A stretch of DNA of 64,000 nt from Eledone cirrhosa. Lineage: Eukaryota. The DNA lies in NCBI GenBank assembly GCA_964016885.1, contig OZ024742.1:147932001-147996000 (forward strand). The letters run 5' to 3'. The position numbers and the translations under genes were made by a program. Below are positions 4,422-60,580 of this stretch, piece by piece (within the stretch, counting starts at the first letter, position 1; every line of letters begins with the position of its first letter). A model generated the notes under the pieces. That model searched no databases. It saw nothing but the letters and a program-made list of their open reading frames with translations, and was not told the origin of the DNA.

Positions 4422-4582
4422 CTTTTGCGTAATGTAGGAGGATCCTTAGTTCCATGTTTCCTGATGGGGACTGCTAACTTTTTCCTATAATTTGCTTGAG
4501 AAAACACGTTCGAGCCATATCCACACATCTGAGGGCCATACAGTGCTTGGTAGCATTGATTACAGTAAGGACGACCTTTGTG
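4422..4582 (-). CDS. Next coding exon (161 bp) of the same LIM protein; not in the ORF track
   Basis: Minus strand reads cttttgtag|CAC AAA GGT...CGC AAA AG|gttagt and translates to HKGRPYCNQCYQALYGPQMCGYGSNVFSQANYRKKLAVPIRKHGTKDPPTLRK. It completes the LIM domain (PYC..CY) and the frame stays open past the donor. Confidence 0.88.
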
Positions 4583-5079
4583 CTACAAAAGAACGATATG
4601 AACCAATTAGATTCATTATATATATAAAAAAAAAGATAGTGAATTGGCAGAGTTGTTAGAATGTTGGATAGAATGCTTTGCAGTATTCATTTCAACTCTC
4701 CATACCCTCTAAATTCAAATCCTACCAAGGTCAAATTTGCTTTTCATTCTTTCAAGATCAATTCTTTCTCTATATCTTTTTCTCACTACTTTTCTCTCAC
4801 TTTCTTTCTCCTTCTCTGAAAGAAATTGGTTGTGTTCAGACCTGGAAAGAGGATGGGCTCTACCAAGTTTAAAGTGCCCAAGACAGTGCCCTAATAACTC
4901 CACCAGGAGTTACAGGTACCTACATACATATATAAAAAAACAACAACAACAGAACAGAACATTTCAGAATATTGTAGGTTTGTTAGGAAAAAAGAAATAC
5001 CTTGTAAAACAATAAACCTTACTCAATTCAATTTAACACAAAATATCAATATGTCTTAGATTGAATATTTTACTAGTTC

Positions 5080-6130
5080 TTTATTCTATCAACTCTGGAA
5101 AGATGAAAGCAATGGCAGAATTTGAACTCAAAATGTAAAGACCTGGAACAAATGCTGCAAAACACTTTGATGCTCTAATGATTCAGTCAAACCATCACCC
5201 ATAATCTACCTATAATATTAATAATAATGATTTCTGATTTAGGCATACGGCCATCAAATCTTTGGAGAAAGGGAAAACTCAATTGGTACATATTCTATTG
5301 ATCCTGAAAGGAAAAATAAAGATCGCCTCAGTGGGATATGAATCAGAACAAATATTGTAATGGCATTTTATCTGTTGGTTTACCAAATCTGCCAATCCAC
5401 TATCCTACAATAATAATTGTTTCTATTTTAAGCACAAGGCCAGCAATTTGAAGGGGAGAGGAAAGTCGATTAAATCGACCCCAGTGTAATACTGGTGCTT
5501 TATTTCATTGACCCCATAAGAATGAAAGGCAAAGCTAACCGCGGCCAGATTTGAATTCAGAACGCAAAGGGCCGTAACTCTATGCTGCAAAGCATGTTGT
5601 CCGACGCCCTATCAATAATGCCAATCCTACCAATAATAATAATAATGATTTCTAACTTATAGACACAAGGCTATAAGTTGTGCAGATGCATATGGTTGGT
5701 CAATTAATGCAACCTCAGTATTTGACTGGTACTTTATTATATCAGCCCCAGAGAGATGAAAGGCAAAGTTGATCACATCAGAGTTTAAATTTGAATTATA
5801 AAGATACCTATTTAAATATCCAAGGGAAATTGTCAAATACTCAACTCTAGTAACAGTTAAACAACAATCCAGTAATAAGGGTTATTGATCATGATATTAA
5901 TTGATTTACTTAGTCAATAGAATACACAGATTGAAGTAATAAACAATTAAGTATTCTAAATGGCGATAATGGTAGCAGGTGTTTTTAATACAGCAGTTGG
6001 GAGGAGGAGAAAGTCGAATATACCAACCCTAGTACTTGATGGTACTCTATTTTAACAACACCTGAAAGATGAAAGGAAAAGTTGACCTCAGGCAGAATTT
6101 TAATTTAGAATATAAAGGTATATACCTATA
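5080..6130 (-). mobile_element. Cluster of degenerate tRNA-SINE copies
   Basis: Repeated 'tactggtactttatttt..accc..gatgaaaggcaaagt.gacc...atttgaactcagaa' core; the best-preserved copy is about 5420-5630. Confidence 0.7.
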
Positions 6131-6303
6131 TAGCTCAGGGAATTTTGTCAAATATTTGACTCTAGTGGCAGGCAAATAACAAGTAAGGTATATAGATTTA
6201 TAGATCATGGTAGTAATTGACCTACCTAATCAATAAAATATACAAGCAAAAGTCATAAATACTTATGGGTTCTAAATAGTAATAGTGGTAGCAGGTGTTT
6301 TAA
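5700..6303. repeat. Old tandem duplication of about 300 bp (5700-5990 vs 6015-6303)
   Basis: Both copies share the SINE part and unique downstream sequence ending 'ggtagcaggtgttttaa'. Confidence 0.6.
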
Positions 6304-6618
6304 ATTAAAAAAATAAAATAAAACAAACTAAAAAATGTTATTGTAAATCTGGGAAACCACTAAATTATGTGTAACTACAAATGTATTCAATGTTCTATAA
6401 AAACCAACATCGAATACACATATGGCAGAAATAGACTTATGAATAAAGAAGTCTTCTTTATCCAGTTCTATTTTGGTTTAGTTTTCTCCTATATTTCTTC
6501 CCTATTTTTCTCCTCATATCTTAATAATTTACCCATTTTATCTCATGTTTCCACCAATCATTTATTTTGATTTTCATGGTAGCTATATATCTAGTTTCTT
6601 TACTTTCTACTATCTAGG

Positions 6619-17858: not shown

Positions 17859-19117
17859 ATATATATACTAGCTGGCCTGTCTGGCTGGCGCCCGGCTAGG
17901 TATACCGGCATTTTATCTTTTCAGGAAGCACCCGTTCCACTCCAGTGCAAAGATACCGCACATCCTCTTGAGTCACATTGTCGTTTCGAGTATGTATCAA
18001 GGGGGGGGGGGGGGGATCTATTGTGGTGACTCATTTCTGACGCGTGAAAAATACCACCACCACCACTGGAATGCTCAATGACCATAATCACTTGATTCCA
18101 TGGTAAAAGTTACAACTGTGGAGTTGGACCATTAGTTTTGCCAGAATCCTGCTATTGTCACACTGGTTGTGATGGCTTTCTAAAAGATCTGATGCAGGCC
18201 TACTGCCAGGTGCTATCTGGCTGGTATGTATATATTTACCACTCTTATACACATTTAAATAAACTTTCCTAAATTACAGATATGAGTAAATAAATTCTTC
18301 ATTCATTCCTAAACCAATGGTAAATTTATTATTTTATTTTATTTTATTTTATTTTATTTTATTTGTGTTTTTTAAAATAGCCTTCACATTTTGTTTGAAT
18401 TTCAGAGGTTCTGATTGTGCAAAAAAAAAAAAGGGATAAATAAAATCTAAAATTATTTTTTTGTGTCATGCCCTTTTCACTGACAACATAACTAATGATT
18501 CTTACAAGTGCAAAGCATTATATATGCTTAATGTAATAGGGAGCAGTATTAAAAAAATCACCACTAGACAAAACTAATATTTTTATCTACATGATTTGCT
18601 TTAAAGAAACGGCAATAAAGATTCTGCTATAATTCCTACTTTAGTTAAAATTCAGCAATCATATTTCAATGGTCAAATATTGAAACTTTAATAAAATAGC
18701 GGTGAATTACCGGGTACCTCAGCTAGTATCATTTGATATTTAATATACTATTATATCACCTTTACCCCCCCCCCCCCCAGTACCCACTGCCCATTAGGCA
18801 CCAGCGGGAGGGGGGGGGGGGGTAACACCCACTTTGAGAACCTCTGTGTTAGAACAGCACCAAACATAGCATATAAGCCAATTCTCTGTTCAACGTTTCC
18901 AATATTATTTTATTTCTATATTTATTTGTAGCTTGTTGTCTGATGAATGATTGTTTGTCTGGCATGCATAATCAAACAATAGACAGATCCAAAAATGTAC
19001 ATTACAATAGTTTATTGAATTCATTAAACTCGGTTCTGTATGAGCATGACATAGTCACCTGACCTGGCATTGCTTACATCAGAATAACTCATCTAACACA
19101 TGCCAGCATGGAAAATC

Positions 19118-20418
19118 ATCATCATCATCATTTTACGTCCGCTTTTCCCTGCTTGCAAGGGTGGGACGGGTATTATTCAGCACAGCATCTCTCCACTTGT
19201 CACAGTCCTTCGTCATCTCCACCGTGAGTTTCAGCGATCTGAGGTCTGTTCTCACCACCTCCGCCCATGTTTTTCGTGGTCTACCTCTACCACGTCTTCC
19301 TTCAACTGGCATTTCCTGGCACTTCTTCACCCATCGGTCATCCTCCATGCGCATCACATGTCCATACCACAACAGTCTCCTCTCTCGCACACTACATTCT
19401 ATCCCTCTCAGACATAGTTTCTCTCTCAACACATTCATGCTGGGTCGTTCACGCACATTGACATTACACATCCAACAGAGCATGCTTGCCTCATTTCTCT
19501 CCAACCATCGCATATCCTCTGCAGTTGCTGCCCATGTCTCACTACCATGCAGCATCGCGCTCCTCACACAGGCATCATATAACCAGTCTTTCGTACGCAG
19601 GCAGAAACCCTTCTTCATCAGCAGAGGAAGCAGCTCCCTAAACTTCTTCCTACCCATCCTTATTCTAGATACTATGGCCTCGGAACACCCCCCCTCCCAT
19701 GCTAATCTGATCTCCTAGGTACCGGAAGCTATCCACCACTTCTATAGCACCCGTCTGCATTTGAAAAATGTGTCTATCAATGCGACTTCTACTGTCTAAT
19801 TTCCCTGTACATCTACTGCATACGTATTTCTCCCTACCTGTTAGTTTGCCTGCTATCCCACTACATCTCTTGTGTACCCAGGATCTGCATTGTGTGCATT
19901 TTATAGAATTTATGCCAGTTCCTTTTCTGCATATCGAACATGGCCATTTCCCTGACGGAATCAGAGTTTTGTCCTCTTTTCTACTCATCAACACTTTTGT
20001 CTTAGCTAGGTTCACTCTCAGTCCTCTTGCTTCCAACTGCTGGTTCTATAGCCAACATTTATTATCTAGCTCCTCTACTGATTCTGCTATAAGAACCAGA
20101 TCATCAGCGTAGAGAAGTTCCCATGGACAGCCAGTCTTAAACTCCTCTGTTATGGCTTGGAGGACTATAATGAACAAGAGTGGGCTGAGGACCGAACCTT
20201 GATGTACTCCTATTTGTATCTGGAATTCCTCACTAAACTCCATTCCTACCCTGACTTTACTGGCAGCACCTCTGTACAAAGTTTTCACTGTCCTCACAAG
20301 CCACTCCTCAACACCTAGTTTCCTTAGGGACCACCAGATAACAGATCGGGGTACCCTATCAAAGGCCTTCTCTAGGTCAACAAAGGCTAAGTATAGTGGC
20401 TTATTTTTCTCTAAGAAC
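19118..20418 (-). mobile_element. 5'-truncated RTE LINE (RT C-terminal half, Cys-rich insert, 3' end)
   Basis: GVHQGSVLSPLLF...LLYADDL; C..C...C..C..WVHKRC...C..C insert; SAMLHGSETW; GRPRKTW; (ATG)n tail. Several frameshifts. Confidence 0.92.
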
Positions 20419-31667: not shown

Positions 31668-33177
31668 GACAGAGTCCTCGTGCCATTATCTGGTGAGCCC
31701 TTAGAAAACTAGGGGTTGATGAATGGCTTGTGAGAGCTATACAAGCCATGTATAAAGAAACAGTCAGCAAGGTTAGAATTAACAACGAATATAGTGAAGA
31801 ATTTAGCGTAAAAGTTGGTGTTCATCAGGGCTCTGTCCTTAGCCTCCTCCTATTTATTATTGCTCTTCAGGCTATAACAGAGGAGTTCAAGATCGGCTGC
31901 CCATGGGAACTTCTCTATGCAGATGATCTAACCCTCATAGCTGAATCAATGGCTAAACTAGAGAAGAAATTCCAAACATGGAAGCATGGCCTAGAATAAA
32001 AAAGCCTTAAAGATAACTTGTCTAAGACTAAAGTTCTAGTATGTAGGAAGGAAAATAGGGCACAGGTCCCCACTGGGAAATGGCCATGCTCAGTGTGTAG
32101 GAAAGGAGTAGGCAGAAATTCTATTTTATGTCCCAAATGCAAAGTATGGGTGCATAAAAGATGTAGTGGGATCACAGGTAAGCTATCTAAGAACATAGAT
32201 TTTATATGTGGCCGGTGCTCAGGTGCAATAAGTAGCAATTGCCCACAAGATACTAACAGTGGTGGAGGGTGCTCAGAAAGTACAGTAGCCAGAGTCAGAA
32301 CGGGGATGGAAAAAGTTCAGAGAGCTTACACCACTATTGGCCACTAAAGGTTTCTCTCTAAAAATGAAAGGCAGACTGTATGATGCCTGCATACAAACAG
32401 CTATGTTACATGGCAGTGAGACATGGGCATTGTGTGTAGAGGATCTGTGCAGACTGGAGAGGAACGATGTGTAATAGTAATATACGTGAACAGCAAAGCA
32501 TAAATGAACTAAGTGAGAAATTAGGTATAAGAGGAATCAGATGCTGTTTACTCGAGAGAAGACTACATTGGTATGGTCACGTGATGTGTATGAAAGACGA
32601 CAGCTTTATAAAAAAGTGCAGGGTGATCAAAATTGACAGAAGTTACGGAGTAGGCAGACCCAGAAAAACCTGGGATGATTTGATGAATTCCGACCTTACA
32701 CACTTACACCTCTCTAAGACAATGTCACTGGACCGAGATCTTTGGCGCTACGCAGTAATACAGAAAACCCGCCGTTCCAAAGTACAAAGCGAAACCTACA
32801 GTCAGTAGGCACCTCTTAATCAAATATACACCCCATCCCACTACCCCCCCCCCCCCCACACACACACCTCCATCAACACCACCCCTTTCTCTGTAAAGTT
32901 ATGTTGGTACCACAGCATCCAGTCCTAAATAAATGAGGTCGTGTAGGTGTCACAACAAAAAAACACACAGTCCACGCTGTAATGTGGCTGTGTAGGTAAC
33001 ACGGTAAAAACCTCCCAGTCCACACTGTAAACGTGGTTGGTGTTAGGAAAGGCATCCAGCCGTAGAAAACCTGCCAGACAGTCCTATATGAGTGAGACGA
33101 CCAATCTTGCCTCAAGTGGGACAATTCCCGTCTAAACCCATGCTAGCGTGGAAGATAGACATTAAACGATGATGATG
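31668..33177 (+). mobile_element. 5'-truncated RTE LINE with a long 3' UTR
   Basis: GVHQGSVLS...LLYADDL, Cys-rich insert, GRPRKTW, about 370 bp UTR and (ATG)n tail. The 3' part is homologous to 46357-46923. Confidence 0.9.
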
Positions 33178-50529: not shown

Positions 50530-52099
50530 TATAATGTATTGGTCTAGGGCAGTGGATTGACAGAATTGTTAGAAAATCAAATGAGATGCCTTGTGGTATT
50601 TGTTCTGGCTTTTTGCATTCTGAGTTCAAATACCACTGTGGACGTACTTCAATGGTAGGTTTAATTTGGTTTAACTGGTTTAATTTGGGTACCTTTAGCA
50701 GAGTTCACTCTGTGGCAAGCATTTAGACTATGTCTTTGGTTTGAACATACCTCCTCCTCCCAGTATCAGAAGTCCTGAAAAGGACGAGGACACTATTCTT
50801 CTCACTCTGTATTGATTCCAACCCCTCCCTGAAAATGTGTAGCTTTGCATTGATGTTAGAAATCAATATAACTATTGCTTGTGATAAATCAATACAATGA
50901 CATAAATGTTGGAAATCAATATATTCATTATTGGTAAAAGCAGTGGATAGCAGAGAGACAGACAAAATGATTTAAGATATTTAGTTATGTCAGTGGTTCT
51001 TAAACTATTTTGCTCCACAACACCTTGAAAAGTTTGATGCTTCTCAATATAAAAATGTTTGGTGTTAAAAAGATATAAAACTTTGATGTGAAATTACCAC
51101 TACACCCTTCTGGAGGAAGGGAGGGGAGGGAGGGAGCATGTTTATCACATTCAGAATCACTGAGTCGAAATCCTTTCAAAGTTAATAAAAATACTAAAGT
51201 GAAATATTGCGTTGATTAAATTGACTATACTCCCCCAAAAATATGAGGCCTTTGGAGGTGGACTGCAGAAAGGCTGTCAGCTGCACAAAATGCTTTGGAG
51301 TATCACAGTTAAATGTTGTAATCACAGGTCAACTCAAATGGAACCGACCTATGATCAAAGGTATTCTAACAGTGACTACCCTGTCTTTGCTTTTATGTAT
51401 GGTATAATCTAGAATGACATTACTGAATGTGTTTTTCCTTTATATTTTAAGTTAGTCAGGACTGATTTGAGGGAAAATTGGCTAATATTTCACAAAACTA
51501 TGATTACCCTGTACAGCAAAGCCTTTCAAACTTTTCACATTGGTGAGACACTTTTTAAAAATAAAATTTTCATGACATTCAGTTTTGTTAGTGAAGTTAA
51601 AATAAATAACTCAAAATATATATAAAAAGAAAAAAATTCGATAGGATACATAAGTTTGTATGCAAAATTGTCATCATTATTATTTGATTTTGGCGTGGAT
51701 TGAAGGTGGTGGATTGGCAGTATCGGTAGAGGGTCGGACGCCATGCTTTGACACATAGAGTTACGGCCTTTGCCATTCTGAGTTCAAATCCCGCCGAGGT
51801 TAACTTTGCTTTCATCCTTACGTGGTCGATAAAATAAAGTACCAGTAATGCTGGTAATGCTGGTAATTGCTGGCCTTGTGCCAAACGTAGAAACAATTAT
51901 TATTTGATTTTGGCAGTATCGGTAGAGGGTCAGATGCCATGCTTTGCAGCACAGTTACGTCCGTTTACGAACTGAGTTCAAATCCTGCCGAGGTTAACTT
52001 TGCCTTTCATCCTTACGGGGGTCGATAAAATAAAGTACCAGTAATGTACTGGGTAATTGCTGGCCTTGTGCCAAAAGTAGAAACAATTATTATTTTTTA

Positions 52100-52585: not shown

Positions 52586-54502
52586 CTCAGAAATATTTAT
52601 ACAAATTGATTAGATTTGACTTAATTTTGTAATACACCTAAAGGTTATCAGCAACACACTAAAGAAGGGATACCCAGACTTTGTTAGGCTATCAACTCTT
52701 TTAAAGAATCCTTGATCCCTCATTGATCCCAAGCAAGTACACAAATAAATAAGTAAATAATAAATCAATAAAGAAAATATAAAATAAACAGACAATAAAT
52801 TACATATACATCAGAAACCTATATACTAAGTTGTATTTTATTGTATTATTTATGCATTTTAAGGGCAGTGGATTGGCAGTATTGGTAGAGCGTGGGACAC
52901 CCTGCTGCGCAGCATAGAGTTACGTCCCTTTATGTTCTAGGTTCAAATCCCGCTGACGTAGCTTTGCCTTTCATCCTTATGGGGCTGATAAAATAACGTA
53001 CCAGTCATGCACAGGAGTCGATTTAATCGACTTTCCCCGCCCCCCCAATTGCTAGCCTTGTACTAAATGTAGAAACAATTATTTTATACATTTTCATTTC
53101 TTATACAAATGTCAGGTTTTGGCTCATGAGTTCAACTGATCTCTGGAGGAAGGAGGAAGGCTATATCGACCACATTGAGTATCCCAGCATTAAAGTGTCT
53201 TAACATACAAATTGGAAATCGCTGATGTAGAGACTTCCTCATTAGCCCATTTATTTCTGATTTCTCACAAAGGCTATCCTGTAAACAACATTTGTGATTT
53301 AAATATGACATGTAAAGAAATGCTTTGTGCCACTCTCCCCTATCTTTTTCTCATGGAAACTATGAATCAATGATTAAATTAGTGCAAAAATAATTTCAGG
53401 AAACATTTTCTGTACCGCCTGAGAATCTACTTTAAGCTTATTGTTTACCATTATTTATCACTAATAATGTGAACAATTGATAATAAATGACAGAAAATGT
53501 TTAATGTATGCACATATATGCAAATAACTATGTGTTATTTGTGTCATGCTTGAATAGTCAATGAGGTAAAATTGTTACCTATGTTAACTATGGGAACTGA
53601 AAAACTATCCAAAATAACAAATTGCATATATAATTACTACAGTCCCAACATAAGCTGGGTTATGAATAAAGATAAGGACTCATATTTAGTTTTGCTGTAG
53701 AATTAAGCCCCACGGGAGCCTTTTTGGCAGCTTAGGATCAGGATTGAATTAACCAGTTTCATTGTTATTTATCAGTTTATCAGGATAATCTCTTCCTATC
53801 AGTATTGGGTGTCCTGGAATAGACAAGCACCCTCACAAGCATTACACAGCTATGCCAAATGCCACAGACTGAAAAATGTAGTTTATCAATAAATCATGGT
53901 TTTTCAATAACTAGGATTTTTTTCAACACGCTGACGCATACAAGTATATATGTGTGCGTGTGTATTTGTGTATATGCATACATTTATATGTATGACTATA
54001 TAAATATAAACGCTCAAACACAGACACACTTACAAACATACATTCACACAAACACACATATATTTATACACAAACATACACATACGCTGTCACACAGCGT
54101 AGCAAATGGAACGCCAGCCACTGTTTTGCTATAGTTTTTTCACCATATCCTGCCTCCCTTTTACACACACATTATGTGACGGACGGACGAAAGTCGCTCA
54201 AATTTATATATAGATAGATAGTTTCCATTCAGCATTCAGTTATGGATGTATTTACCTTCACCTACACTACAGCTTCTTAATGTCCTGTTTTACATGAAAC
54301 CGCACCAACCCAATCTAGGGGAGAAAACTTTATCTCCTACTGCTATTATTCATTTCTTGAGTTTTCTCAACCTCCAGAGAAAAATGATGTTATGCTTCCT
54401 CGTAGACATCAATGAACAGATACTTATAAGAGTCTTGAACGTACATGGGTTTTGAATAATGCAGGAGGTTGGGGAACCAATTAACCACGTAAGTTGTAGG
54501 CA

Positions 54503-54554
54503 GACAGGCAGAATGAGTTGGGGTTCAGAACCCAACGAAACTTGAGTACCTGTT
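54503..54554 (+). ncRNA. Type-I hammerhead ribozyme-like motif with a mutated core
   Basis: gacagg-CAGAAUGA-guuggg(loop)cccaac-GAAA-c uuga g-UA^ccuguu; stems I, II and III all pair. Confidence 0.55.
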
Positions 54555-54608
54555 TATGTCACTGTTGTAATTATACTAAACTCGTCCTATGGACTGAGTG
54601 CTCTTACC

Positions 54609-54682
<74 letters not shown>

Positions 54683-55071
54683 GAGTAAATCGAAGAGGTG
54701 GTGATAGAATTCTTGGCATATGCACGTTTAATAAAAACAATATATGTATAAGTTGTTTGAAAGAAATCTTCGTAAAGAGCAAACAAACAAATGATGTATA
54801 TGTTTGAAGATGTGGTATTAACTGCACTATCACTTTGAAAGCAAAAAGTTTCCATTAAAAATATTGAAATTGATTTATAGATCTACTGGACTTTATTTCA
54901 AGTATACTTCCAAAATAACAGTACACTATAAATTCACCAAAAGATTATTTAAAAATTCAACTATAACATTCTGTATATTTGGTATTACTGAAAATTGCCA
55001 GTAATATGCACAGTACATGTCGCATTTTAAAAGGGTACGTCAAAGCTTATTTGTAAAACTGTTATATATTG

Positions 55072-55136
55072 TATTTTGTCTGATGAAGGCATACCATAAT
55101 TTAATTTGGTAACCCTGAAATATGTATAATGAAATA
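55072..55136 (+). ncRNA. Type-I hammerhead ribozyme-like motif (Penelope pLTR type)
   Basis: uauuuugu-CUGAUGA-agg..uacca..uggua..ccu-GAAA-uaugua-UA^augaaaua. Canonical core, 8-bp stem I with two G-U pairs, overlapping a downstream AATAAA. Confidence 0.6.
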
Positions 55137-55175
55137 AATATGGTTTTATAAATATAGTTTCCATTTATTAATATC

Positions 55176-55215
<40 letters not shown>

Positions 55216-55258
55216 TCAGTCCATAGGACGAGTTTAGTATAATTCCAACAGTGACATA

Positions 55259-55310
55259 AACAGGTACTCAAATTTCGTTGGGTTCTGGACCCCAACTCAT
55301 TCAGCCTGTC
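55259..55310 (-). ncRNA. Type-I hammerhead ribozyme-like motif (inverted copy)
   Basis: Minus strand reads gacagg-CUGAAUGA-guuggg guccagaa cccaac-GAAA-u uuga g-UA^ccuguu. Confidence 0.6.
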
Positions 55311-55362
55311 TGCCTACAACTTACGTGGTTAATTGGTTCCCCAACCTCCTGCATTATTTAAA

Positions 55363-55410
<48 letters not shown>

Positions 55411-56121
55411 GCAATTTTTAATCGAGATATGCGGCAAGCGCTCAATGGACTAAAAGAAGACCAGAGCAACTAACATACTTTATAGAGGCCAAACAAACTG
55501 AAAACGGCGGTCATGAAGCTATCATCCACCGGAGACAAAAAAAAACGAAGCAAGCCCCCCCCCCCCATATATATATATATACATACACACACACACACAC
55601 ACATATATATACGTAGTGTGTCTTTAAAATACCATAGTATTTAAAACATTCAAACATTACTTGAATTAACACTCAATACAGTAGAACAGTGACCGTTTCA
55701 GCTTGATCACTTCATCACCATATGTGTGTGTGTTGTATGTAAGAGTATCTGATTCTGTTAACTAGGTGGCTTTAGTACACACATTATAGGCTCAGTGACA
55801 CTTCCATGTAGACAAATAATTTAAAAAGTGAGCTACGTTTAAAAATGAAATTAACTGTGACTGACCAATATCCACAATAAGCTCTACAAGAATGAACAAT
55901 TCTAATAATCGAATGTGCTCAAAGTCAACATAACAATTACTCATTATACAACTAGTACAAGTACTGTTAAGATACAATGAATTAAAAGAAAAACAAACAG
56001 AACGCACACATAAGGTAGTTTGGTTCTAATACGATAGTTTTATGGTTATGTCGATATAGCAAACATAACAAAAGCTCATTAACACATGATAAAAGAAAAA
56101 CATGCTAACTGTGTGTGTGTG

Positions 56122-56166
<45 letters not shown>

Positions 56167-56705
56167 GGAAAAAAATCTCTAGTCAGGTTTCTCGTGAACA
56201 AGATTCTTTAGAGAAACGGATGTAGTGCTTGCTAAATTGACCCACTTGTCCAGTAATCTCACCCCTCCTTTCTTCTGACTTTAATCTCATCACTGTAGTA
56301 ACGGTAGTATATGATATGAATCATGTACTGCCGTCCATCATATCGATTAAACACCTTTTAAAAGTTCCACTCCTTTGGTGAAATTAGACCTTTATGCATA
56401 AACTAATTCATTAATTAGACATCGCGCGCGCGCATGTGTGTGTCTAAGCGTGTTGTTTAGTCACTTGTCAGTAATGATTAAGCAAATTTATGGTCAAAGG
56501 CATTTCCTCCATAGCCATTCACACAGAGATAGAGCACGAGCAAGATGGTTGGATAGCATCCATGAGCTCTTTTAGCATATCGAGCAACTGAATACATGGA
56601 GGGTTCTTGTGTGTGTTTCATATGTATTCATTGTATCAACAAAAACAAAAGCGAGATATGTCACACTTTCCGTATTCCGTTTTTCAGTCCTTTGTATATT
56701 GATTT

Positions 56706-59413
56706 CATGTACCATTTCCTATTCAATCTTGTCACTGGTATCAATTCATTCATTATATTTATTATATTTGACTGTTTGATTTTTGTCAACCGAAATTTGT
56801 ATATGCCTAGAGTGTGGTTGTTTAAATATATTTGCTTTACTGCTTTGTAAATATGTTCATGTTTGTACACGAATCTTGGTGTCTCCGACTGAATGTCGGT
56901 AGGGTTTCTTTCTCGCTGTGCGTATATATTATGTATAAATGAGAGTTCTTGATTCTGTGTGCCTGTCTAAAACCCGGAAACTAGCGAATGGACACCCACA
57001 AAATTACATATATATATTCACGAGACAAATAATATTTCCGTATGCATATTGAAAAACTCGACCATTTTGTTTTATCTTTCTCCATTCTGTAGAGAAAGAG
57101 CGAGAGGGGGTGGGAGAGTTAAAATAAAAGAAAAGAGAAATGACGGGAGAGCGAGAGGGGATGGGAGAAAGAAAGAAAGAAAGAAAAGAGAAAAAACATG
57201 AGAGAGATGCGTTCGATAAAATTGAGAGGAAGAAAATGAGATGTAACAGGGAATGGCCGTGCTGATAAAGTGGCTATGGCTGAGTAAACAAACAATTGAA
57301 GCTGGGACAAATGTCTTCCGTTGGTATATATATATATATTTTTTTTTTCACTCACTCTTTAACTTACCCCTTTCTCCATATATACAGTCTGTTCGTTTTT
57401 TATGCGAATTCGCTTTAACGCCCCTTGGAAAAATATTATTAAATATTCACTTTGCGCGAGTAACGCGCTATAACGCGTGTGGTTTTTATTTTTTATTTTT
57501 TTCTGTTTATCAGAAATATGCGACTTGAATTACGCGAATTTGCTTTACGCGCAGAGTTCACGAATGCATCTTCGCGTAAAAAGCGAACACATTGTCTGTG
57601 TGCGTGTGTTTGTGTGCGTATGTGTGCGCGTGCATGTGTGTGTGTGTGTCCGCGTTCTTTACTTCTATCTCTCTCGCTTAAGTTAAATAAAGCAGACGAT
57701 GTTTATTTTATTACAATCAGCGTTATGAGTTAGAAACACCGATCATCTCTTCATTTAAACTACTGGCAAAATCATAGTTTTTGTTTATTATTTATCAAGT
57801 AAATTACACTTCATAATGTTGGCTATTAAAAACTATAGATATATTTTGTTTTATCTTTTAGTGTGCGGGGGTTTTTTGTCCGGTTGGGGGTTTGCCAATT
57901 TATATGTGGGTTACAGGTATATACTTGTGCATGTAGAGTATATGATACACTTATAAATGACAGAACCAGCGATGGAAATGGCGGTGCACGCAGAGAGACG
58001 ACGTTTCTTTATTTTTCAGTGTCTTAAGTTTAGGACCTACTGCTATGATATATTAGTAATAATCTGATTCATTCAATGGATCATACGAGGAAAATAATAA
58101 AGCTCAAGTGTTGTGGGTTCAATTCTTGAACTGGGTGGCGCATTGTGTTCTTGAGCAAAACACTTCATTTCACATTACATCAATCCACTTAGTTGAAGAT
58201 GAGTACCAACTGTAGCTAGGGGGTCAACCCTTCGATGGACTGGCCTCCTGTCCAGAGAGTTTCATATTCCCAGCCGCTTAACGCCAATGAACCAGGATGA
58301 GCAGCCTGACGAGCATCCGGGCTTTGGACAGGACAGGTATTTTTAACTGTATGAGGAGTTTATAGAAAAAAGAACTAGAAGTACAAACCTATAACTTAGT
58401 ATCCAATAAAAATAAAGTAAGTTTGCCCATTTGCCATTGTCATTTAATTTGCTTATTGTGATTTGTAGAAAATGAAAAGCTGTATAATACTAGCATCAGT
58501 TTAGTTTCAGTGATAGAAAGGGATTCGAGGTGCCTGGATGTTTAGGATTCTAGGCTAGCTCTATAATGTGCGACTCATTCTACCAAATGAAATAATTTCA
58601 ACTACCAAATGCTCCTCTGTGGGATCTGCGCCCTAGGTGACAACCTAGTTGGCCATAATAGTAGCGACAGCCCTGGATGCGCTAAGGTTCGTGGGAACGA
58701 GGTTGAGTAGAGCCACCACCACCACCATCATCCTGGAAACTGGAAACTGAAATGTAAGGGAACGCCATCCCCCTGCCACTGATGCCCTCGTTTCCATCAC
58801 CGATAGTAAGAAAACATTTACTGCTTGTGCTATATTCTTGTTACTAGGTTAGTGTGGCACTACATATGTGTATACACAAGCACATGTGATTGTGTAAGTT
58901 TTTTTTTTTTTAATCCACCAGTTTGAGGAAAGAGAGAGAAAGAGAGTGTGTGTGTGTGTGTGCGCGCACGCAGACCTGCCAACCTCTAAAACCCAAACGG
59001 GGAGTACCATGAAAAAGAGTGCCCCCAAACGGGGAGAAATGAGGCAAAATGAGGAGATTTTTACATAATTGTGTCTACTTTTGGCACAAGGCCAGCAATT
59101 ACCCAGTACATTACTGGTACTTTATTTTATCGACTCCATAAGGATGAAAGGTAAAGTTAACCTGGGCGGGATGTGAACTCAGTCCGTAAAGGGACTGCTT
59201 TTCAGCATAGTTATGTTGCAAAGCATAGCGTCCGACCCTCTACCGATACTGCCAATTACATAATGAAAGCTATACCCATTTTCACAAAAGAAGACGTCTT
59301 CATCCACCCCAACGTGGGTGGGAGATCCCCCCGGTGGTGCGTATGTGTGTGTGACACATGATGATTTTTCCTCACCGCGTTTATATTAATTCTCATAAAT
59401 TTTGAATCTGAAT
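56706..59413. repeat. Left arm of a large inverted duplication (partner 61302-64000, running off the window)
   Basis: Colinear reverse-complement match over 2.7 kb wherever checked, with scattered substitutions and small indels. Confidence 0.95.
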
Positions 59414-59496
59414 AATAGCTTTCACCTGGTCCAGGAATCGAACTCACAACCTTACGATTGCGAATCCAATTTTCTAACCACTCAGCCACACGCCTT

Positions 59497-59569: not shown

Positions 59570-60580
59570 TTTCTCTTTCTCTTAATTTCGAGTATATTTT
59601 TTTTGACCGGTCACCTTCCTGGTGGCAAGGTTGTAAAAGAAAAGAAATTGTCATCCCTTGAATCGCAAGAATGTTTTGCAAATTTTGAAGGTGCCAGCTA
59701 TCGCAGCCATTTGTAGACTATGAATTAGGGAGCTGCGCTTTTTGTCCGCAAATCCAAGTTCAGTCAAACTTTGGTCCAAGCGGGTTGGTATATAACCCGT
59801 AGCACCAATAATGATGGGTATGAAGCTAAAGGTGTATCTTGGATACTGGATTTGTAAACTCCTCATCAATGGTCCGTAGATGTCCTCCTTCTCCTGTATT
59901 TTTCTGACAACGTTTACTTCAAGTGGGCAGCTGATCTCCACAACGGAACACGTTTTCAATGTGTGGTCCCAAACTACAATATCAGGCCGGTTGTGCTTTA
60001 ATTTGGTGGCAGTTTTTATTTTCAGGTTCCACCAGTATTCCTTCGTGCCATCTGTCTCAATATATTCTTCCTCGTTTGTTGTTAATTTTGTTTTCCGAAG
60101 TGCGTTCCAGATGGTTCTAGCTATCCCATCGTGTCTCATGGGGGGGGGGGGGGGGGGTAGTAGCGAGATGACATTCTTTCGCAGCTGGCAACAATGTGGC
60201 TTACATCCTCGATCTTTGTTTTACATAGCCTACATTTATTGTCAGCTGCTGGCCCTCCTCTTTTGTGCAGCAGATATTTGGTAGGGAGTTCTTGTTCCTG
60301 TATTGCATAGAGATATCCCTCAAGGTGTGATGTCATAAACTTGTCGGAACTCCATGCCAGGCTTTTTGAGTCGTTTATCCCCTCTATGGTCTGTGTTTTA
60401 CGCCTCAAGTATCCATGCACAATTTTTTCTGTAAATTGGTCAATTTTTTTATCTTGTTTGAACATTGAATAGGATCTTCCGATTTCTCTGGGTGAGAGAT
60501 TTATATCAGGCTTTATTCCATATCTCTCCTCCAGATCAGTCGCTATTCTAATGATATTTCTTTTTTCATGGTCATAAACC
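59570..60580 (-). mobile_element. 5'-truncated R4-clade (Dong-like) LINE with CCHC knuckle and restriction-like endonuclease
   Basis: EGYLYAIQEQELPT...CRLC....EDVSHIVASC...RHD...HNRPDIVV...VVEISCP...EKEDIY...IPIIIGATG; frame broken at a homopolymer run (about 60140-60157). Confidence 0.88.

What the first reader, a model, noticed from the sequence alone, without database searches (positions are those of the whole stretch)
54450..55363. Cassette with three hammerhead ribozyme-like motifs: two in inverted arms and one in the spacer
Seen: each ~152 bp arm folds by eye into a type-I hammerhead (6-bp stem I, 6-bp stem II, minimal stem III, GUA triplet), so a motif is present on both strands. The spacer holds an unrelated hammerhead with a canonical CUGAUGA/GAAA core. 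Known: Penelope-like elements and retrozymes carry minimal type-I hammerheads with palindromic stem III that work as dimers, and Penelope often forms inverted pLTR arrangements. Inference: the stem III sequences look like CpG-decayed palindromes (ACTCGAGT, ATACGTAT). This could be nested pLTR remnants of two families or a composite non-autonomous self-cleaving unit. A plus-strand transcript cut at both sites would release about 580 nt.
Basis: partly seen in the sequence, partly recalled or inferred. Interest (0 to 1): 0.75.

Follow-up and report, generated by a model that had tools for sequence, protein, structure and literature searches.

The report
Pile-up of Penelope retroelement stubs
The three hammerhead-like motifs are the cut-short ends of two common Penelope-type jumping genes that landed beside TA repeats, and the mirror-image arms are one stub plus its flanking DNA, likely copied backwards once by a local DNA accident, so this is probably not a working self-cutting unit.

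Summary
The 152-bp inverted arms (5 mismatches) and three hammerhead-like motifs are real, but they are not one unit. The spacer motif is the 5'-truncated end of a young Hydra-clade Penelope-like family (B) with full-length 743-746-aa copies elsewhere. The arm motif is the end of an older, decayed relative (A). Each arm also holds 53 bp of an unrelated older repeat; that junction was found nowhere else in the genome. The arms point tail-to-tail, while 18 of 18 other neighbouring A pairs point head-to-head. So arm 2 is a one-off local inverted copy, not a pLTR pair or TIR; a 3.25-kb inverted duplication lies 0.8 kb away. Release of a 580-nt RNA is unlikely: arm 1 has a core mutation, the two stem IIIs do not pair, and the arms would pair with each other. 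CpG decay is not supported (TG 52 : CA 1). One oddity: family A spread with an 8-nt core (CUGAAUGA), matching a described low-activity insertion type, and a sub-lineage has the canonical register. The scan found Hydra-clade stubs before on other DNA of this genome. Cleavage is untested; arm 2 lacks independent read support.

The parts
54275..54502 (.). Old dispersed repeat D (host flank); its last 53 bp form the outer part of arm 1
   Evidence: 70-76% identity to other copies over 54275-54496; 7 other matches among 9 candidates, all scored
54450..54601 (+). Left arm (original): 53 bp of D plus 99 bp of PLE family A
   Evidence: continues naturally into D on the left and into the A tail on the right; junction bridged by run contigs (records 9 and 17)
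54503..54614 (+). 5'-truncated 3' end (pLTR plus internally deleted tail) of PLE family A
   Evidence: 1975 candidates, 40 scored, 90-93% identity; long copies carry decayed RT/EN coding sequence upstream
54503..54554 (+). Hammerhead motif 1; core CAGAAUGA (U4A on top of the family's 8-nt core); putative cut after 54548; likely inactive
   Evidence: T at this position in 67 of 68 aligned copies, this arm being the exception
54580..54599 (+). Bulged tail hairpin of family A, also in arm 2 and in sister family A2
54615..54683 (.). (TA)n(CA)n tract, target of the A insertion
54688..55018 (.). Fragment of old repeat C, cut at both ends; resident at this locus
   Evidence: 259 candidates, 40 scored; best long match 77%
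55019..55175 (+). 5'-truncated 3' end (short end, no tail) of young Hydra-clade PLE family B
   Evidence: 99% identical to many copies; one change from family copy L032, at 55112; parent ORF 743-746 aa between pLTRs
55072..55136 (+). Hammerhead motif 2; canonical core, AUA triplet, putative cut after 55128; private change at 55112 weakens stem II
55176..55211 (.). (TA)n tract shared by the 3' ends of B and arm 2
55212..55363 (-). Right arm: local inverted copy of the D|A junction segment, inside a (TA)n tract
   Evidence: not independently verified by run contigs
55259..55310 (-). Hammerhead motif 3; family 8-nt core CUGAAUGA; stem III weakened by a private change; putative cut at 55265
   Evidence: self-duplex -1.2 versus -5.8 kcal/mol
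55360..55410 (.). A-run plus (TA)n at the outer end of arm 2
55411..55557 (-). 5'-truncated 3' end of a further (TA)n-ended repeat family E, outside the reported cassette; no canonical hammerhead seen by eye
   Evidence: 1405 candidates, 40 scored, 90-96%; variable 5' ends, shared 3' ends

Best explanation
The cassette is a pile-up of truncated 3' ends of two Penelope-like retrotransposon families beside TA repeats, and its right arm is likely a one-off inverted copy of the left stub with 53 bp of its flank, so it is predicted to be inert rather than a self-cleaving unit. Steps. (1) Shown: family B is an ORF-bearing PLE with Hydra-clade motifs and its hammerhead in the pLTR; family A is a decayed relative. 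(2) From the literature plus the pattern of copies: such elements are reverse-transcribed from internal start sites at nicks in AT-rich DNA, leaving 5'-truncated stubs with a short or a tailed 3' end at (TA)n. (3) Shown: an A stub is joined to old repeat D, and a B stub to a fragment of old repeat C. (4) Shown: the D|A junction segment is present twice, inverted, and only here. (5) Inferred: the second copy was laid into the (TA)n tract about 600 bp away by template switching during repair of a break at the microsatellite. (6) Predicted: none of the three motifs cuts efficiently here, because they need a matching stem III partner, arm 1 lost U4, and the arms would form a long RNA duplex.
For: B parent: 108 scored matches at 91-100% aa, many without stops; pLTR-ORF-pLTR copies L164 and L166; AlphaFold model (mean pLDDT 81) matches telomerase RT best (Foldseek ranks 1-8; VIA Z 15.7, rmsd 4.7, 288 aligned, tied with other RTs); RWR, DKT, CxCx5C, CxxC, CxH, YRDD and GIY-YIG-like motifs match the Hydra description. 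A parent: long copies are 40-68% aa identical to intact sister A2, which is 34% identical to B. Junction: only the two arms span it among 9 of 9 candidates and among all fetched loci. Orientation: of 19 neighbouring A pairs, 18 are head-to-head and only the window's is tail-to-tail. Arm 2's 3' end is not at either family end. Both arms share a 4-nt deletion seen in only 3 other copies. Each arm has its own changes (2 in arm 1, 3 in arm 2). Other local inverted duplications of host DNA: 3.25 kb at 98.8% from 56171, ends at microsatellites, and about 400 bp of flank at L140. Folding.
Against: Arm 2 lacks the 13 bases that separate arm 1's copied part from its own (TA)n, so a simple TA-to-TA fold-back needs an extra deletion, and there is no microhomology at that junction. 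Run contigs verify arm 1's junction but none listed is specific to arm 2. Pfam gave no RT or GIY-YIG hit for the ORF; the endonuclease rests on motifs only, and no tree with published Hydra proteins was built. Tail-to-tail neighbours do arise for B (7 of 50 pairs). No RNA data, no cleavage assay.
Confidence: 0.8

Rival explanations
1. Same pile-up, but arm 2 is a local retrocopy: a PLE protein bound a read-through RNA from D into A, started just behind the tail hairpin, copied through the uncut hammerhead into 53 nt of flank, and inserted at the nearest (TA)n (a 5' transduction).
For: Arm 2 begins 2 nt past the tail hairpin and abuts (TA)n like PLE 3' ends; it sits between two (TA)n tracts. 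PLE RT starts internally without homology to the target and uses uncut RNA (PMC11167929). Arm 1's distal tail is deleted, which could shift the start.
Against: No other of 91 aligned A ends abuts (TA)n at this position. Landing within about 600 bp of the donor needs an unknown cis preference. A non-PLE inverted duplication lies next door. No RNA evidence for read-through.
Confidence: 0.1
2. Arm 2 is an assembly or haplotype artefact, and the locus holds only one A stub and one B stub.
For: No listed run contig is specific to arm 2's junction; in two of three runs the arm-1 contig passes the shared 55 bp unbranched. PLE inverted structures trouble assemblies (PMC8557442).
Against: The arms differ at 5 positions in both directions; arm 2 keeps the family base at 2 positions where arm 1 is changed, and has 3 changes of its own. 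In run X1 the contig ends exactly before the first arm difference, as a branch would cause. The runs are shallow, filtered, and may be another individual.
Confidence: 0.05
3. The cassette is a composite non-autonomous, self-cleaving mobile unit (retrozyme-like) that releases about 580 nt of RNA, or a TIR-bounded DNA element.
For: Two sense-strand hammerhead-like motifs 580 nt apart; clean 152-bp arms.
Against: Single copy; the left arm runs on into host repeat D with no boundary; U4A in arm 1; unmatched stem IIIs; arm-arm pairing gives probability 0.0 for arm 1's stems I and II; retrozymes are tandem same-family units (bioRxiv 2026.07.22.740005).
Confidence: 0.03

Closest known systems
Hydra clade of C-terminal EN+ Penelope-like elements (Craig et al. 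2021, PMC8557442; Hydra-1_Obim, Hydra-2_Amil, Penelope-13_HM)
   Same: Single ORF of about 740 aa with RW[RK], DKT, CxCx5C, CxxC and CxH motifs; hammerhead near the 3' end with self-complementary stem III; (TA)n targets; 5' truncation; inverted copy at the 5' end in sister copies.
   Different: Families A and B are not Hydra-1_Obim (different hammerhead). Tails are about 65 bp (A) and 90 bp (B), not 30-40 bp. Family A has an 8-nt core; all 26 Hydra rows of File S2 have CUGANGA. The window's arms are tail-to-tail and include host flank.
Minimal type-I PLE hammerheads (Cervera and de la Pena 2014, PMC4209133)
   Same: Small palindromic helix III, dimer-type architecture, mostly solo truncated copies; opposite-strand pairs 100-700 bp apart were already noted in Schistosoma.
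   Different: Here the opposite-strand pair comes from a duplicated junction; the family A core has an extra nucleotide between A6 and G8.
A6a core-insertion hammerhead (Perreault et al. 2011, PMC3088659)
   Same: One extra nucleotide after A6; reported there as natural, with low activity.
   Different: There a rare variant; here the majority state of a family with at least 571 exact-match sites. I did not see the figure, so the inserted base and context were not compared.
Templated inverted insertions at double-strand breaks (PMC11724301, abstract only)
   Same: Short inverted copy of nearby DNA placed at a break by template switching.
   Different: Yeast local fold-backs are mostly 5-34 bp and next to the break; here 152 bp from about 600 bp away, mechanism inferred.
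Animal non-LTR retrozymes (bioRxiv 10.64898/2026.07.22.740005)
   Same: Type-I hammerhead, PLE-related, non-coding.
   Different: Retrozymes are head-to-tail tandem units of one family; this is a single-copy mixture of two families.

Membership tests
Hydra-clade PLE (parent of spacer motif, family B) | Single ORF with telomerase-like RT, element about 3 kb | tested here: met
   743-746 aa ORFs between pLTRs; TERT best fold match
Hydra-clade PLE (parent of spacer motif, family B) | C-terminal GIY-YIG endonuclease | tested here: inconclusive
   GIY-YIG-like motif at 621-637, conserved in homologues; no Pfam hit; domain not folded alone
Hydra-clade PLE (parent of spacer motif, family B) | RWK-type motif, DKT, CxCx5C linker, CxxC and CxH | tested here: met
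   RIRWR (R for K), DKT, CxCx5C at 601, CxxC at 699, CxH at 726 against the description
Hydra-clade PLE (parent of spacer motif, family B) | Hammerhead in pLTR; insertion in (TA)n | tested here: met
   stem II covaries across 20 related motifs, 7 of 7 pairs with two-sided changes
Hydra-clade PLE (parent of spacer motif, family B) | Phylogenetic placement with published Hydra proteins | not tested
   Published sequences were seen only as text in a supplement
Hydra-clade PLE (parent of arm motif, family A) | Linked RT-EN coding sequence with Hydra motifs | tested here: met
   Decayed long copies 40-68% aa to sister A2, which has LRWR, DKT, CxCx5C, YRDD; no intact A ORF found
PLE inverted-pLTR insertion | Inverted 5'-truncated copy next to the 5' end (head-to-head), element sequence only | tested here: not met
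   Window arms are tail-to-tail and include 53 bp of host repeat; 18 of 18 other A pairs are head-to-head
Minimal type-I hammerhead | Stems I and II, self-complementary stem III, NUH triplet | tested here: met
   All three motifs
Minimal type-I hammerhead | Conserved CUGANGA core | tested here: not met
   Met for the spacer motif only; arm 2 has an 8-nt core, arm 1 has U4A as well
Minimal type-I hammerhead | Self-cleavage as a dimer | not testable with these tools
   Needs an in vitro assay
Non-LTR retrozyme | Two or more tandem same-family units with complete hammerheads | tested here: not met
DNA transposon or MITE with TIRs | Several copies of the whole unit; termini at the arm ends | tested here: not met
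   No second copy among scored candidates; the left arm boundary lies inside repeat D

The most novel reading that the evidence does not exclude
Family A is a Penelope lineage that spread to hundreds or thousands of copies with an extra nucleotide in the hammerhead core (CUGAAUGA), kept its stem III self-complementary through UA, UG and CG states, and later regained a canonical core register (CUGAAGA plus A) through a two-step path seen in the genome. It would be a natural series in which ribozyme speed was tuned down and up while dimer pairing stayed under selection.
Probability: 0.3. Interest if true: 0.45.

Novelty: new member of a known kind. Interest (0 to 1): 0.2.

Why it matters
The cassette matters little: it is retroelement debris plus a local duplication, and it warns that hammerhead clusters and inverted arms in this genome mostly come from (TA)n-targeting PLEs. 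The useful by-product is family A: three natural core states and three stem III states in one lineage offer a ready test of whether PLE hammerheads need to cut at all, an open question (PMC8557442, PMC11167929). Family B has near-intact young copies suited to studying Hydra-clade transposition.

Tried and rejected
Rfam scan: no hammerhead match; this says little for minimal motifs. Pfam and PDB sequence searches did not recognise the ORF; the ESM Atlas gave no result. GIY-YIG folds were not listed, where the RT domain filled the lists. No RNA holder listed, which is no evidence on expression. Run contigs do not span the cassette and show no arm-2-specific piece; a hole proves nothing. Rejected: arms as TIRs or pLTR pair; the 53 bp as part of family A (it is repeat D); C as a recently captured piece (best long match 77%); CpG decay (first 100 of 537 sites: TG 52, TA 45, CG 2, CA 1; counted by hand from the listing). 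tblastn of two PLE ORFs against the window found nothing. Literature: 'hammerhead' with 'CUGAAUGA' gave 0 papers; CTGAATGA in the Craig supplement occurred only outside the hammerhead table. Lunse et al. 2017 (title seen in a reference list) is not held and may describe this core. The family A tree is weakly resolved and unrooted.

Full report
Observation. The arms 54450-54601 and 55212-55363 are 152 nt with 5 mismatches and 610 nt between them. A relaxed type-I scan of the 64-kb window gave exactly three motifs, with cuts after 54548 (+), after 55128 (+) and at 55265 (-). Arm 1's core is CAGAAUGA, arm 2's is CUGAAUGA, and the spacer's is canonical CUGAUGA with an AUA triplet. Rfam found no hammerhead. 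The motif class is far above chance: 171 motifs in 819 kb of fetched loci (81 family B, 27 A, 5 A2, 58 others not searched for) against 2 in 2.46 Mb of shuffled sequence.

Anatomy. The host is a 3.0-Gb animal genome. Searching it with the arm gave 1975 candidates (40 scored); apart from the two arms, matches start at arm position 53-56 or later. The first 53 bp belong to an older repeat D that runs on leftwards to 54275. The spacer is (TA)n(CA)n, a 331-bp fragment of old repeat C (best long match 77%), and a 157-bp end of family B that is 99% identical to many copies. Outside arm 2 lie an A-run, (TA)n and the end of a further repeat family E.

What the families are. Walking upstream from B copies led to pLTR-ORF-pLTR elements with 743-746-aa frames. 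Pfam does not recognise them, but the predicted fold matches telomerase RT best. The protein has RWR, DKT, CxCx5C, CxxC, CxH, YRDD and a GIY-YIG-like motif, the diagnostic set of the Hydra clade (PMC8557442 section 11). Family A's long copies are decayed (78-87% DNA identity to each other; stops in most close hits) but are 40-68% identical in protein to an intact sister family A2, which is 34% identical to B. Both families show PLE hallmarks: variable 5' truncation, (TA)n at the 3' end, and two fixed 3' ends, short and tailed (for A, 36 of 91 aligned ends near the short end and 43 in the distal tail). Two internal RT start sites explain such tails in the anole PLE (PMC11167929, parts 1-2 of 4). 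Across 20 B-like motifs, 95.5% of cells pair, all 7 stem II pairs show two-sided changes, and 0 of 500 shuffles reach the score; the sequences are related, so this is not a probability.

Why the arms are not a pLTR pair. Of 19 neighbouring A pairs in the loci then held, 18 are head-to-head and only the window's is tail-to-tail; for B, 35 of 50 are head-to-head, 8 tandem and 7 tail-to-tail. Both arms carry the D|A junction, found nowhere else among 9 of 9 candidates or in any other fetched locus, and a 4-nt deletion seen in only 3 other copies. Arm 1 has natural continuations on both sides. Arm 2 has new junctions on both sides, inside (TA)n, and ends where no other aligned A copy abuts (TA)n. 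So arm 2 was copied from arm 1; since then arm 1 gained 2 changes and arm 2 has 3. How it was copied is inferred. I favour DNA template switching at a microsatellite break, because a 3.25-kb, 98.8% inverted duplication of host DNA with ends at (TA)n and (TATG)n starts at 56171, and locus L140 also duplicates flank DNA. Templated inverted insertions at breaks are described in yeast (PMC11724301, abstract only). A local PLE retrocopy remains possible. Contigs from three runs of one sample confirm arm 1's junction but show nothing specific to arm 2, so an artefact is not fully excluded.

Would it cut? Minimal PLE hammerheads are inactive as monomers and weak as dimers (PMC4209133, parts 1-2 of 4). 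In the folded + strand, 148 of 152 arm-1 bases pair with arm 2 and arm 1's stems I and II have probability 0.0; the A and B stem IIIs pair at only 5 of 8 positions; arm 1 has U4A; B's change at 55112 weakens stem II; arm 2's stem III self-duplex falls from -5.8 to -1.2 kcal/mol. A 580-nt product is therefore unlikely. This is prediction, not assay.

Stem III and core variation. Among the first 100 of 537 exact sites the centre of A's stem III is TG 52, TA 45, CG 2, CA 1. Strand-symmetric CpG decay would give TG and CA about equally, so TG and TA are source-lineage states; both stay self-complementary (UG by wobble) while CA would not. B-like motifs show ATATGTAT 94, ATATATAT 22, ATGCGCAT 7 and 4 singletons of 127. 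Among the first 100 of 571 sites, A's core is the 8-nt form in 70, the canonical register CUGAAGA plus A in 24, other in 6 (counted by hand). In 27 copies chosen by upstream sequence or protein, 21 had the 8-nt core. An insertion after A6 is known as a natural low-activity variant (PMC3088659, passages); none of 26 Hydra rows in Craig's File S2 has it. Canonical-register copies are slightly closer to their majority (0.960, n=4) than the others (0.933-0.951, n=6-12) and group with support 0.90 (41 of 93 copies, those with tails). That hints they are derived, but samples are small and selected by exact-match patterns.

Papers seen: PMC8557442 (passages, section 11, supplement part 2 of 59 and search hits); PMC11167929 and PMC4209133 (parts 1-2 of 4); bioRxiv 2026.07.22.740005 (part 1 of 5); PMC3088659, PMC6765202, PMC6155905 (passages); PMC11724301 (abstract); Lunse 2017 (title only). 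Figures and unread supplements of these may bear on the core variant. Hammerhead position numbering and the importance of U4 are recalled, with partial support.

Verdict. Real but ordinary: stubs of two further Hydra-clade families plus a one-off local duplication. Earlier notes of this scan report the same kind of stub elsewhere in this genome; none was found for this stretch or for the 8-nt core. Interest 0.2.

Noticed in passing
window 56171-59417 and 61297-64535 (runs past the window end into L147): 3.25-kb inverted duplication at 98.8% identity, starting after a (TA)n and ending at a 719-bp (TATG)n array; the spacer holds a decayed non-LTR-like coding fragment (about 59650-60580).
   Followed up: partly
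window 55411-55557 (-); loci L188-L211: Repeat family E: 5'-truncated, (TA)n-ended, partial tandems, no canonical hammerhead seen; may be a PLE or a non-autonomous derivative. Not tested for the scrambled hammerhead noted elsewhere in this genome.
   Followed up: partly
L177:1837-4002 (+), L178-L181: Sister family A2: long open frames, hammerhead with canonical core and a stem II of only about 2 bp, and the same tail hairpin as family A.
   Followed up: partly
L140:634-2550 and 4564-6505: Family B head-to-head pair whose inverted repeat extends about 400 bp into identical 3' flank on both sides.
   Followed up: partly
L164, L165, L166: Near-intact family B elements (743-746 aa) with pLTRs on both sides; the hammerhead lies about 170 nt upstream of the start codon; tail about 90 bp.
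   Followed up: yes
many loci: 58 untargeted hammerhead motifs of several other families with varied palindromic stem III, including long-stem-II forms.
   Followed up: no
window 54275-54502; L063-L069: Repeat D ends a few bases after the junction in other copies, one directly before (TA)n; its end looks like a DNA-transposon terminus (recalled, untested).
   Followed up: no
window 52000-52093, 52964-53083 and many other places: Abundant SINE-like repeat of about 190-270 bp throughout the window; RTE/LINE-like coding fragments at about 19100-20400 and 32000-32800.
   Followed up: no
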